Positions 11,330 through 12,495 of a stretch of DNA of 15,280 nucleotides are shown piece after piece (within the stretch, counting starts at the first letter, position 1; every line of letters starts with the position of its first letter). The position numbers and the translations under genes are program-made. Source of the DNA: a virus (Duplodnaviria > Heunggongvirae > Uroviricota > Caudoviricetes); IMG/VR virus record IMGVR_UViG_2740892369_000045; one strand, given 5' to 3'. Below the pieces are notes generated by a model that saw only the letters and a list, made by a program, of their open reading frames with translations, was not told where the DNA came from and did not search any database.

Positions 11330-11830
11330 ATGCCAAAACTCCCCGCACCACTGCGTAAAAAGCTGATTGCCCTTGTTCTGGCCGGTGCCGGGACGTTCAC
11401 GATTGCCACGCATTACACCGGTTACTGGGAAGGGAAAGAAAACTCCACGTATATCGATCCCACCGGTACACCCACCATCTGTTACGGCCATACCGGCCCG
11501 GATGTGAAACCGGGTATGACCCTGACGGATGAAGAATGCCTGGAACTACTGGAAAAGGACATGAAATGGGCCTTTGCGGCCATTGATCGGCGTGTTCAGG
11601 TGCCGCTTACCCGTGGTCAGACGGTGGCGCTGGCTTCGTGGATCTTCTGGGCCGGTGAAACGAACTTTCGCAACTCCACGCTTCTGCGCCTGATCAATGC
11701 CGGGCAGATGCCCGCGTCCTGTAAGCAGTATATCCGCTGGATTTATTCAAAGGGGGTGAAGCTCCCCGGCCTTGAGGCCCGCCGTTCGGCGGATGAATGG
11801 TTATGTCGCTACGATTTGCCGAAAGTCTGA
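11330..11830 (+). CDS. SAR endolysin (lysozyme/muramidase with N-terminal signal-anchor-release domain)
   Basis: 166 aa; N-terminal RKK followed by the Gly/Ala-rich hydrophobic LIALVLAGAGTFTIATHY; canonical E-8aa-D-5aa-T catalytic motif in EGKENSTYIDPTGTPT. Confidence 0.85.
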   Translation: MPKLPAPLRKKLIALVLAGAGTFTIATHYTGYWEGKENSTYIDPTGTPTICYGHTGPDVKPGMTLTDEECLELLEKDMKWAFAAIDRRVQVPLTRGQTVALASWIFWAGETNFRNSTLLRLINAGQMPASCKQYIRWIYSKGVKLPGLEARRSADEWLCRYDLPKV

Positions 11831-11894
11831 ACCGCTTCTGGCGACCGATCATGATAGCGCTGCTGTGTGCGGTACTGCTGTTACGGGGTGTCCT

Positions 11895-12293
11895 GTGGCT
11901 GCGGTGAATAATGCCTTACCGGCCCTGATTGCCGGGGCGTGCATGGCGGCGCTGGGGATTATCGCTGTACTGGTTGCCGCGATATGGGGAATGCACCAGA
12001 AGACGCAGCGCCTTGAAGACAATAATCAGGTGCTTGTGCGTGAGCGGGATGAGGCGCGTCAGGTGCTGGCAAATCAGCAGCACACCCTGCAACTCATTTC
12101 ACAAATCAGTGAGGCGGCCACGAATGAAAAACAACAGAACATTCAGCACAGCGAGGGGCAGCAGAGCGTTGTCCGCCGGTCGCTGGCAGCAGTGCCTGCG
12201 GCCTCTGCCCCTGTTCCTGATGATGTGGCTGATCGGGTGCGCCGGGCCGTCTGTGAAATACGTGCCTGTGAAGCCGGTGCCGATCCCCGCTGA
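11895..12293 (+). CDS. i-spanin (Rz-like inner-membrane spanin subunit)
   Basis: ORF track frame 11772..12293; real start probably the GTG at 11895 (GGGGTG upstream) or the ATG at 11943. N-terminal TM helix ALPALIAGACMAALGIIAVLVAAIWG followed by a Q/E/R-rich helical periplasmic domain with C-terminal cysteines. Confidence 0.6.
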   Translation: MAAVNNALPALIAGACMAALGIIAVLVAAIWGMHQKTQRLEDNNQVLVRERDEARQVLANQQHTLQLISQISEAATNEKQQNIQHSEGQQSVVRRSLAAVPAASAPVPDDVADRVRRAVCEIRACEAGADPR

Positions 12294-12495
12294 ATGGCTG
12301 GCTGACTGCCTAGTCCCTCCTGCGCCGGAGCCGTTCACGTTTGGGGCATCGGTCACTTACAACCTGCAACTGCTGGCGGTGATCAAGAACTGCAACGTGG
12401 ACAAGGCCAGTATTCGTCGTCTGGAGACGCGGCGACAACATGAATTTACTGATATGGCCGGAACGCCTGCTGTTCCGGCAGGAAAAACGAAGTAA
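12124..12495 (+). CDS. o-spanin (Rz1-like outer-membrane lipoprotein), starting inside the i-spanin gene in the +1 frame and extending beyond it
   Basis: Alternative frame of the 11929..12495 ORF; lipoprotein signal with lipobox L-I-G-C (Cys codon at 12238-12240); proline-rich mature region PVKPVPIPAEW...PPAPEP. Start could also be the TTG at 12169. Confidence 0.6.
   Translation: MKNNRTFSTARGSRALSAGRWQQCLRPLPLFLMMWLIGCAGPSVKYVPVKPVPIPAEWLADCLVPPAPEPFTFGASVTYNLQLLAVIKNCNVDKASIRRLETRRQHEFTDMAGTPAVPAGKTK

What the first reader, a model, noticed from the sequence alone, without database searches (positions are those of the whole stretch)
11330..12495. Lysis cassette with SAR endolysin and overlapped spanins but no recognisable holin
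The endolysin has a signal-anchor-release N-terminus and the E-8-D-5-T catalytic motif. It is followed by an i-spanin with an N-terminal TM helix and an o-spanin with lipobox LIGC that starts inside the i-spanin gene in another frame and extends past its stop. No multi-TM holin or pinholin candidate lies next to the endolysin, raising the question of what triggers endolysin release.
Basis: partly seen in the sequence, partly recalled or inferred. Interest (0 to 1): 0.5.

Follow-up and report, generated by a model that had tools for sequence, protein, structure and literature searches.

The report
Mu-type holin-less lysis cassette, plus micro-gene
This is the lysis gene cluster of a Mu-like prophage of E. 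coli, which, like phage Mu itself, has no holin and instead carries a homologue of Mu's "releasin" just downstream; that is ordinary, but a conserved and unannotated 34-36 codon membrane-peptide gene sits between the endolysin and the spanins.

Summary
Window 11330-12495 holds a GH24 endolysin with a SAR-type N-terminus and E34-X8-D43-X5-T49. It also holds an i-spanin and an overlapped o-spanin (lipobox LIGC, Cys39). No multi-TMD holin lies beside it or among the plausible genes of the 39-kb prophage.

The puzzle is already solved in the literature. The window is a Mu-like prophage (transposase, GemA, Mor/C, gp26, gp27). Gene order lys, spanins, zinc-finger gene, DUF2730, gp26, gp27 matches Mu genes 22 to 27. 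Chamblee et al. 2022 showed that gp25 ("releasin") frees the Mu SAR endolysin in a holin-less phage. Dependence there comes from adjacent basic residues before the SAR helix, and this endolysin has R9-K10-K11.

One new item: a 34-36 codon ORF (11797/11803-11907) encodes a single-TMD peptide. It is missed by PGAP. It is intact in four lineages whose endolysins diverge to 48-49% identity, and it shows purifying selection only in its own frame. Its function is unknown.

Verdict: new member of a known kind, low to moderate interest.

The parts
10833..11258 (+). Mor/C-family transcription activator, the presumed activator of the late (lysis) promoter. It is context rather than part of the cassette proper.
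   Evidence: PF08765 at E 3e-32. 39% identical to Mu C and 27% to Mu Mor. It is the only Mor-family gene found between gemA and lys.
11259..11329 (+). Intergenic region with a putative activator-dependent late promoter (Plys equivalent).
   Evidence: No sigma-70 consensus promoter was found in 10700-13400. An upstream element (CCGCAAAGCC here, ACCATAATCCC in Mu) and a TTAnnCTG -10-like block align with the annotated Mu late promoter region. This is inferred, not shown.
11330..11830 (+). SAR-type GH24 endolysin (muramidase), the homologue of Mu gp22 and phage 21 R.
   Evidence: PF00959 at E 6e-37. 39% identical to Mu gp22 at E 8e-34. Matches 3HDE (phage 21 lysozyme) at E 1e-24, with the alignment covering residues 5-161. 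Motif E34-X8-D43-X5-T49. K3, R9, K10 and K11 precede a weakly hydrophobic stretch at 12-29.
11797..11907 (+). Unannotated micro-ORF of 36 codons, or 34 from the conserved ATG at 11803: MVMSLRFAESLNRFWRPIMIALLCAVLLLRGVLWLR. It encodes a single-TMD peptide. It overlaps the endolysin 3' end by 34 nt and the i-spanin start by 13 nt (4 nt if the start is GTG 11904).
   Evidence: It is intact in all but one of the complete loci of this endolysin lineage that were fetched (L024/L110 has a 1-nt insertion), including lineages whose endolysins are 83%, 67% and 48-49% identical. pN/pS is 0.26-0.36 in its own frame, 2.3-5.3 in the i-spanin frame and about 1 in the third frame. Single-pair tests gave p = 0.015, 0.03 and 0.17. 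Best 19-residue hydropathy mean is 2.35. It is absent from the PGAP annotation and from a 15-billion-protein collection. One 34-aa homologue was found among 1.84 billion representatives.
11895..12293 (+). [quoted passage not shown]
   Evidence: phrog_214 at E 8e-33. 27% identical to Mu gp23 at E 2e-6. TMD hydropathy mean 2.64. The GTG 11895 start is at the same position as the ATG of the Citrobacter-type and the GTG of the Edwardsiella-type relatives, with GGGG 6 nt upstream. PGAP's start at 11865 falls in sequence that shows no coding constraint in that frame.
12124..12495 (+). o-spanin (Rz1/LysC-like, homologue of Mu gp23.1), an outer-membrane lipoprotein in the overlapped architecture.
   Evidence: PF23793 at E 3e-16 and phrog_3001 at E 7e-42. 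42% identical to Mu gp23.1. Lipobox LIGC with Cys39, Ala at +2, and 11 Pro in the 85-aa mature part. The ATG start and long basic n-region are conserved in relatives. PGAP's start at 12253 lies downstream of the lipobox.
12505..12732 (+). TraR/DksA-type C4 zinc-finger protein, in the position of Mu gene 24. Its role in lysis is unknown.
   Evidence: PF01258 at E 2.5e-12 and TIGR02419 at E 4e-22. It is syntenic with Mu gp24, but the sequence similarity is insignificant (E 0.27).
12713..13021 (+). DUF2730 protein, homologue of the Mu gp25 releasin. It has an N-terminal TMD (10-28), an R29-K30 junction and a 74-aa cytoplasmic helical domain.
   Evidence: PF10805 at E 7e-20 over profile positions 3-101 of 102. 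phrog_736 at E 9e-32. BLASTP against Mu gp25 gave 34% identity at E 8e-17, and tblastn hits the feature annotated 'releasin' in AF083977. Hydropathy mean 1.8, with the RK junction. GGAGG lies 6 nt upstream of the ATG.

Best explanation
This is the late lysis operon of an intact-looking Mu-like (transposable) prophage of E. coli, of the kind called Sp18 in O157:H7 Sakai. It most likely works as Mu's does, as a holin-less pathway.

Steps of the proposed mechanism:
1. The Mor/C-family activator turns on a late promoter upstream of the endolysin gene.
2. The GH24 endolysin is exported by Sec but stays tethered and inactive in the inner membrane by its N-terminal SAR helix. Three adjacent basic residues on the cytoplasmic side (R9-K10-K11) hold it there.
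3. The DUF2730 protein, encoded two genes after the spanins, is a membrane-anchored cytoplasmic protein that promotes exit of the SAR helix from the bilayer (the releasin function).
4. The freed enzyme refolds and degrades the peptidoglycan.
5. The i-spanin/o-spanin complex then disrupts the outer membrane.

Shown here: homology, synteny, sequence motifs and the absence of any holin-like gene. Inferred from Mu: dependence of release on DUF2730, and the role of the basic residues.

In addition, a conserved 34-36 aa single-TMD peptide is encoded between the endolysin and the i-spanin in this sub-lineage. It is probably a real gene and probably part of the cassette. What it does is unknown.
For: Mu-like identity:
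- Mu transposase, GemA, Mor, gp26-like and Gp27 families are all present.
- The window is 100% identical to E. coli chromosomes, and 222 genomes carry at least 80% of it.

Synteny and homology with Mu genes 22, 23, 23.1, 24, 25, 26 and 27:
- Identities are 39, 27, 42, not significant, 34, 62 and 57% respectively.

DUF2730:
- Full-length PF10805 at E 7e-20.
- A TMD followed by RK, matching the conserved RR/RK junction described for gp25.
- It lies within five genes downstream of the endolysin, as in all 34 phages surveyed by Chamblee et al..

Published experiments on Mu (PMC9239132):
- No Mu membrane protein behaves as a holin.
- A 25::cam mutant does not lyse on time.
- gp22 plus gp25 suffice for lysis.
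- K6 and K7 (or Arg at those positions) confer gp25 dependence.
- gp25 also releases unrelated SAR endolysins.

The endolysin here:
- R9-K10-K11 is invariant in the three closest lineages.
- The closest solved structure is the phage 21 lysozyme, which I recall to be the SAR endolysin R; the alignment includes the N-terminal segment.

No holin:
- Searches found none.
- Homologous endolysins in lambdoid contexts have an adjacent pinholin.
Against: - No experiment exists for this prophage. Sp18 was only predicted to be intact and was not inducible with mitomycin C (PMC2669165).
- Chamblee et al. note that DUF2730 proteins also accompany endolysins without SAR domains, so the family's function may be broader than release of a SAR helix.
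- The cytoplasmic domain here has 11 acidic and 14 basic residues and no His. Mu gp25 has 12 acidic, 11 basic and 2 His. Two of the mechanisms proposed for gp25, a serine-protease-like activity and an acidic microenvironment, are therefore not obviously conserved.
- The SAR assignment rests on hydropathy and homology. No TMHMM or SignalP-type predictor was available, so a cleavable signal peptide is not strictly excluded.
- The extra micro-ORF shows that the cassette is not identical to Mu's.
Confidence: 0.72

Rival explanations
1. The micro-ORF peptide (11797/11803-11907) is itself the missing trigger. On this reading it is a minimal single-TMD holin or pinholin-like depolariser, or an obligate partner or antagonist of the releasin, that sets lysis timing. 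It would act in addition to DUF2730 or in its place.
For: - It lies inside the lysis cassette and overlaps both neighbouring genes.
- It is conserved, with purifying selection in its own frame, across lineages whose endolysins diverge to 48-49% identity.
- It has a strongly hydrophobic TMD with an invariant Arg-Gly inside it and a basic N-terminal segment.
- Depolarisation is known to release SAR endolysins; the pinholin test on Mu gp22 shows this.
Against: - It has one TMD and only 34-36 aa, and it matches no holin family or any other family in Pfam, PHROGs or NCBIfam.
- Mu lyses without such a gene, and in Mu an energy poison delays rather than triggers lysis.
- The similarly built Mu gp20 (39 aa, one TMD) is dispensable for lysis.
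- The invariant CGG-GGT codons overlap a possible Shine-Dalgarno sequence for the i-spanin, so part of the conservation may be at the nucleotide level.
Confidence: 0.12
2. There is no dedicated trigger. The SAR endolysin leaves the membrane spontaneously as it accumulates, and the DUF2730 protein has another role, for example in morphogenesis or DNA packaging.
For: - SAR endolysins in general release spontaneously at some rate.
- The Mu 25::cam mutant eventually lyses at about 3 h.
- DUF2730 proteins also occur with endolysins that have no SAR domain.
- The DUF2730 gene borders the gp26/gp27 packaging genes.
Against: - Mu gp22 alone is non-lytic on the normal time scale because of two adjacent basic residues.
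- This endolysin has three adjacent basic residues plus K3, and they are conserved in the closest relatives.
- The DUF2730 protein is a type I homologue of gp25 over its full length.
Confidence: 0.1
3. The N-terminus is an ordinary cleavable Sec signal peptide, so the endolysin is secreted as a soluble periplasmic enzyme and is controlled in some other way.
For: - The n-region (K3, R9-K11), a 15-residue h-region and T-I-A at residues 24-26 resemble a signal peptidase I site (read directly from the sequence).
- No SignalP or TMHMM predictor was available to test this.
Against: - The putative -3/-1 residues are not conserved in relatives: GIA, GIT and VLT.
- The hydrophobic stretch is Gly/Ala/Thr-rich, like proven SAR domains.
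- The N-terminal segment aligns with that of the phage 21 lysozyme structure and with Mu gp22.
- Constitutive secretion of an active muramidase would cause premature lysis.
Confidence: 0.05

Closest known systems
Phage Mu lysis system: gp22 (SAR endolysin), gp23/gp23.1 (spanins), gp25 (releasin, DUF2730). Chamblee et al., mBio 2022, PMC9239132
   Same: - Same gene order: lys, i-spanin, overlapped o-spanin, small zinc-finger-type gene, DUF2730, gp26, gp27, downstream of a Mor/C-family activator.
- Every lysis protein is a detectable homologue, at 27-42% identity.
- Basic residues precede the SAR helix.
- There is an RR/RK junction in the DUF2730 protein.
- No holin gene is present.
   Different: - Only 27-42% identity to the Mu proteins.
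- No homologues of the Mu membrane proteins gp19 and gp20, and only one Mor/C gene in the window.
- The SAR helix has 2 Gly, not the six-Gly run of gp22.
- The gene in the position of gene 24 is a clear TraR/DksA zinc finger.
- The DUF2730 cytoplasmic domain is net basic and lacks His.
- There is an extra conserved micro-ORF between the endolysin and the i-spanin, where Mu has overlapping genes and no room.
Phage 21 R (SAR endolysin, PDB 3HDE/3HDF) with the S21 pinholin
   Same: - It is the closest solved homologue of the endolysin (E 1e-24).
- It has the same LRK-type N-terminus followed by a weakly hydrophobic helix and a GH24 domain.
   Different: - Phage 21-type endolysins are released by a two-TMD pinholin encoded immediately upstream. 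Such genes were found next to relatives in non-Mu contexts (PF04971 and PF16080).
- No such gene is present here.
Overlapped two-component spanins (P2 LysB/LysC type, Mu 23/23.1)
   Same: - The o-spanin starts inside the i-spanin gene in the +1 frame and extends past its stop.
- It matches the Pfam LysC family and has a lipobox with Cys.
   Different: - The signal peptide is unusually long (38 aa) with an extended basic n-region, conserved in relatives.
- The RefSeq annotation starts the gene after the lipobox.
Mu gp20 (39 aa, one TMD, N-in/C-out, function unknown)
   Same: Its size and build resemble the micro-ORF peptide, with a short polar N-terminus followed by a C-terminal TMD. It is also encoded near the lysis genes of a Mu-like phage.
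   Different: - There is no detectable sequence similarity.
- gp20 is a middle gene located upstream of C, and it is dispensable for lysis.
- The micro-ORF lies inside the late cassette.

Membership tests
SAR endolysin (GH24 muramidase, Mu gp22 / phage 21 R type) | Phage lysozyme (GH24) catalytic domain with E-X8-D-X5-T | tested here: met
   PF00959 at E 6e-37. The motif is E34, D43, T49. WEG is invariant in four lineages.
SAR endolysin (GH24 muramidase, Mu gp22 / phage 21 R type) | N-terminal weakly hydrophobic helix rich in Gly/Ala/Ser/Thr, preceded by basic residues | tested here: met
   Residues 12-29 include 9 Gly/Ala/Thr out of 18. The 19-residue hydropathy mean is 1.39, against 2.64 for the i-spanin TMD. 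K3, R9, K10 and K11 lie upstream.
SAR endolysin (GH24 muramidase, Mu gp22 / phage 21 R type) | Homology, including the N-terminal segment, to an experimentally proven SAR endolysin | tested here: met
   Mu gp22 aligns over residues 1-155 at 39% identity. 3HDE aligns over residues 5-161 at E 1e-24.
SAR endolysin (GH24 muramidase, Mu gp22 / phage 21 R type) | Uncleaved membrane tether that is released on depolarisation, by a pinholin or by a releasin | not testable with these tools
   This needs fractionation and lysis assays. No SignalP or TMHMM predictor was available.
Releasin (DUF2730 type I, Mu gp25) | Full-length match to PF10805 and significant similarity to Mu gp25 | tested here: met
   PF10805 at E 7e-20, covering profile positions 3-101 of 102. 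BLASTP at E 8e-17 with 34% identity.
Releasin (DUF2730 type I, Mu gp25) | N-terminal TMD followed by an RR/RK junction and a cytoplasmic domain (N-out, C-in) | tested here: met
   Hydrophobic stretch at 10-28 (mean 1.8), then R29-K30, then a 74-aa domain. The topology itself is inferred from the positive-inside rule.
Releasin (DUF2730 type I, Mu gp25) | Encoded within five genes downstream of the endolysin of a transposable phage | tested here: met
   It is the fifth gene after the endolysin if the micro-ORF is counted, and the fourth if not. The surrounding genes are transposase, GemA, Mor and Gp27.
Releasin (DUF2730 type I, Mu gp25) | Required for timely release of the cognate SAR endolysin | not testable with these tools
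   This has been shown experimentally only for Mu.
Two-component spanin, overlapped architecture | [quoted passage not shown] | tested here: met
   phrog_214 at E 8e-33 and PF23793 at E 3e-16. Lipobox LIGC with Cys39. Coordinates are 11895-12293 and 12124-12495.
Holin / pinholin | Small protein with two or more TMDs, or a match to a holin family, encoded next to the endolysin or elsewhere in the phage | tested here: not met
   No plausible multi-TMD gene was found in the whole prophage. No holin family matched. As a positive control, pinholins were found next to homologous endolysins in other contexts.
Holin / pinholin | Lethal membrane permeabilisation that an energy poison can trigger (applied to the micro-ORF peptide) | not testable with these tools
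   The peptide has a single TMD and matches no family. Its function is unknown.

The most novel reading that the evidence does not exclude
The conserved, never-annotated 34-36 aa single-TMD peptide encoded between the SAR endolysin and the i-spanin would be a fifth component of a holin-less lysis system. On this reading it is a membrane micro-protein that tunes or gates SAR-endolysin release, either as a partner or antagonist of the DUF2730 releasin or as a minimal depolarising trigger. This Mu-like sub-lineage would then have a timing device that Mu itself lacks.
Probability: 0.3. Interest if true: 0.6.

Novelty: new member of a known kind. Interest (0 to 1): 0.3.

Why it matters
The finding as stated is not a new puzzle. 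It is a second, fairly divergent example (27-42% identity) of the releasin-based, holin-less lysis strategy described for Mu in 2022. It is carried by a prophage present in more than 200 complete E. coli genomes, including O157:H7 strains.

It has three practical uses:
- It is a natural comparison set for the unresolved releasin mechanism. The His residues and net acidity of gp25 are not conserved here, whereas the RK junction and the adjacent basic residues of the endolysin are.
- It corrects the RefSeq start sites of both spanin genes.
- It reveals a conserved micro-gene inside the cassette that gene callers miss. If that peptide acts in lysis, it would add a new component to SAR-endolysin control.

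Tried and rejected
- **Exhaustive HMMER search with the micro-ORF.** It gave one true homologue (34 aa) and two repetitive false positives. The exact sequence is absent from the 15-billion-protein collection. tblastn against isolated phages found only the same Mu-like element inserted in two Stx phage records. No paper contains the peptide sequence.
- **Long i-spanin starting at ATG 11793 or at PGAP's GTG 11865.** Rejected. That frame has pN/pS above 2 upstream of 11895, and the ATG is missing in most Citrobacter-type relatives.
- **TTG 12169 as the o-spanin start.** Rejected because it is not conserved, whereas the ATG at 12124 is.
- **PGAP's o-spanin start at 12253.** Rejected because it removes the lipobox.
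- **A -1 frameshift fusing the endolysin to the micro-ORF.** Rejected. There is no slippery heptamer, and a start codon is conserved at Met1 or Met3. One locus (L024/L110) has a 1-nt insertion in an A-run that makes such a fusion, which is probably a sequencing error.
- **E37 as the catalytic Glu**, as MAFFT and HMMER aligned it. Rejected in favour of E34, which is invariant.
- **DUF1378 (L040:37453-37635) as a hidden holin.** Rejected. It has one TMD and sits in an accessory module between the invertase and com/mom. From memory, the same family accompanies true holins in lambdoid phages.
- **Sigma-70 promoter scan of 10700-13400.** It found nothing.
- **Not used.** The metagenome scan and the structure-prediction tools were not used, because they would not decide the question.
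Full report
**What the window is.** All plausible genes run on the + strand. They include a Mu transposase, an AAA ATPase (B-like), Gam, GemA (10254-10763), a Mor/C-family activator (10833-11258), gp26-like and Gp27 proteins, and the start of a large terminase. The whole window is 100% identical to E. coli chromosomes. 222 complete genomes carry at least 80% of it, many of them O157:H7. In strain 97-3250 the element spans about 39 kb, interrupts a NAD-dependent epimerase gene, and ends with gin-like, com and mom-like genes. That makes it a Mu-like transposable prophage. 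I take it to be the Sp18 type of O157 Sakai, which was predicted intact but was not inducible with mitomycin C (PMC2669165). I did not verify identity with Sakai directly.

**Checking the observation.**
- Endolysin (11330-11830, 166 aa). It matches PF00959 at E 6e-37. The N-terminus is MPKLPAPLRKK followed by LIALVLAGAGTFTIATHY, of which half is Gly/Ala/Thr. Its hydropathy mean is 1.39 over 19 residues, against 2.64 for the i-spanin TMD.
- Catalytic triad. It is E34-X8-D43-X5-T49. MAFFT and HMMER aligned E37 with the catalytic Glu of Mu and phage 21 by opening a 3-residue gap.
- Closest solved structure. It is the phage 21 lysozyme 3HDE at E 1e-24, and the alignment includes the N-terminal segment.
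- i-spanin. It matches phrog_214 at E 8e-33. Its most probable start is GTG 11895. This is at the same position as the ATG or GTG used by relatives, and GGGG lies 6 nt upstream.
- o-spanin (ATG 12124-12495). It matches PF23793. It has lipobox LIGC with Cys39 and a Pro-rich mature part. It starts within the i-spanin gene in the +1 frame and extends 202 nt past its stop.
- RefSeq starts. Both (11865 and 12253) appear wrong. The second removes the lipobox.

**No holin.** A hydropathy scan of all ORFs of at least 25 aa across the entire prophage found no plausible multi-TMD gene. The only credible membrane proteins are the i-spanin, the DUF2730 protein, the micro-ORF and a DUF1378 protein in the right-end accessory region. 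No holin family matched among the proteins scanned in Pfam, PHROGs or NCBIfam. As a positive control, homologous endolysins in non-Mu genomes (Tatumella, Erwinia, Pectobacterium, Vibrio) have a phage 21 or HP1-type pinholin gene ending right at the endolysin start. The Mu-like relatives do not.

**What it is.** The gene order lys, i-spanin, o-spanin, zinc-finger gene, DUF2730, gp26, gp27 is that of Mu genes 22 to 27. Identities are 39, 27, 42, not significant, 34, 62 and 57%.

The DUF2730 gene (12713-13021) has these features:
- It matches PF10805 over its full length at E 7e-20.
- It matches Mu gp25 at E 8e-17.
- It has a TMD at residues 10-28 followed by R29-K30.
- It has a strong Shine-Dalgarno sequence.

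Chamblee et al. (PMC9239132) established the following for Mu:
- Mu has no holin.
- gp22 is a SAR endolysin.
- gp25 (the releasin, DUF2730) is required for timely release of gp22.
- Adjacent basic residues K6 and K7 confer that dependence.
- An RR or RK motif at the TMD junction is conserved in the family.
- DUF2730 genes lie within five genes downstream of the endolysin in transposable phages.

Each sequence-level criterion is met here. The endolysin carries R9-K10-K11, invariant in its closest relatives.

**Differences from Mu.**
- There are no homologues of Mu gp18, gp19 or gp20.
- The window has a single Mor/C-family gene, preceded by a clean intrinsic terminator at 10768-10791.
- The gene in position 24 is a clear TraR/DksA zinc finger.
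- The SAR helix lacks Mu's six-Gly run.
- The DUF2730 cytoplasmic domain has 11 acidic and 14 basic residues and no His. Mu gp25 has 12 acidic, 11 basic and 2 His. This does not favour the protease or acidic-microenvironment models as conserved mechanisms.

**The micro-ORF.** The 64-nt gap between the endolysin stop (11830) and the i-spanin start (GTG 11895) is filled by an ORF in a third frame. It runs from 11797 (or the conserved ATG at 11803) to 11907 and encodes MVMSLRFAESLNRFWRPIMIALLCAVLLLRGVLWLR. Its start codons lie inside the endolysin's conserved E-W-L-C codons, and its stop overlaps the i-spanin start.

Evidence that it is a gene:
- It is intact in all but one of the complete loci of this endolysin lineage that I fetched. 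These include E. coli variants and three more distant lineages: Citrobacter-type, Edwardsiella-type, and one (L123/L124) whose endolysin is only 48-49% identical.
- Met3, W-R at 15-16, L-L at 22-23 and L-R-G at 29-31 are invariant.
- In the part free of other genes, pN/pS is 0.26-0.36 in its frame, 2.3-5.3 in the i-spanin frame and about 1 in the third frame.
- Single-pair tests gave p = 0.015, 0.03 and 0.17, with no signal of purifying selection in the other frames.
- Its pairwise identity across lineages (32-59%) is in the range of the i-spanin (40-46%) and DUF2730 (30-81%).

It is not annotated by PGAP. It is absent from a 15-billion-protein collection. It has one 34-aa homologue among 1.84 billion representatives and matches no family. 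Mu has no room for it, because genes 22 and 23 overlap.

I consider it a real gene, with about 80% confidence. Its function is open. Part of the conservation of the CGG-GGT codons could reflect an i-spanin Shine-Dalgarno sequence.

**Verdict.** The cassette is a new member of a known kind. The micro-ORF is the only element that could raise the interest.

Noticed in passing
window 11797-11907 (+): A conserved, unannotated 34-36 codon single-TMD ORF lies between the endolysin and the i-spanin. It shows purifying selection only in its own frame. It is present in four lineages and absent from Mu.
   Followed up: yes
window 11865-12293 and 12253-12495: The RefSeq (PGAP) start sites for both spanin genes look wrong. 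The i-spanin, labelled 'endopeptidase', starts in unconstrained sequence. LysC starts downstream of its own lipobox, which removes the lipoprotein signal.
   Followed up: partly
window 10763-11258: A clean intrinsic terminator (10768-10791 plus a T-run) follows gemA and precedes the only Mor/C-family gene in the window, which is closer to Mu C than to Mor. There are no homologues of Mu gp18, gp19 or gp20. The early-middle-late cascade may therefore be simpler than in Mu.
   Followed up: partly
window 11259-11329: The region upstream of lys shares a short element (CCGCAAAGCC here, ACCATAATCCC in Mu) and a TTAnnCTG block with the annotated Mu late promoter and with three other lineages. No sigma-70 consensus promoter is present.
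   Followed up: partly
L040:35267-37916 (same prophage, outside the window): An accessory module lies between the gin-like invertase and com/mom: a sialate O-acetylesterase-like DUF6645 protein, DUF1378 (60 aa, one TMD) and DUF826. From memory, this is the same trio that sits downstream of stx and upstream of the holin in lambdoid Stx phages.
   Followed up: partly
window 1-262 and L040:39555-40211: The prophage splits a NAD-dependent epimerase/dehydratase gene in this strain. Matches in most of the best-matching genomes begin at window position 255-262, so the element sits at different chromosomal sites in different strains. It also occurs inserted inside two Stx-converting phage records (LC727881, LC727895).
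   Followed up: partly
L024 / L110 (IMGVR_UViG_2526164665_000023), near the endolysin 3' end: A 1-nt insertion in an A-run (GAAAGT to GAAAAGT) fuses the endolysin reading frame to the C-terminal part of the micro-ORF. It is either a sequencing error or a natural endolysin-TMD fusion.
   Followed up: no
window 12713-13021: The cytoplasmic domain of the DUF2730 protein has 11 acidic and 14 basic residues and no His. Mu gp25 has 12 acidic, 11 basic and 2 His. The RK junction is conserved. This bears on which of the published releasin models can be general.
   Followed up: partly
window 9961-10257 (+): A 98-aa ORF just upstream of gemA has an aromatic-rich N-terminal hydrophobic stretch (LFWYLYITSFFGAFVITRWL). 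It matches no family in Pfam. It may be an early or middle membrane protein.
   Followed up: no
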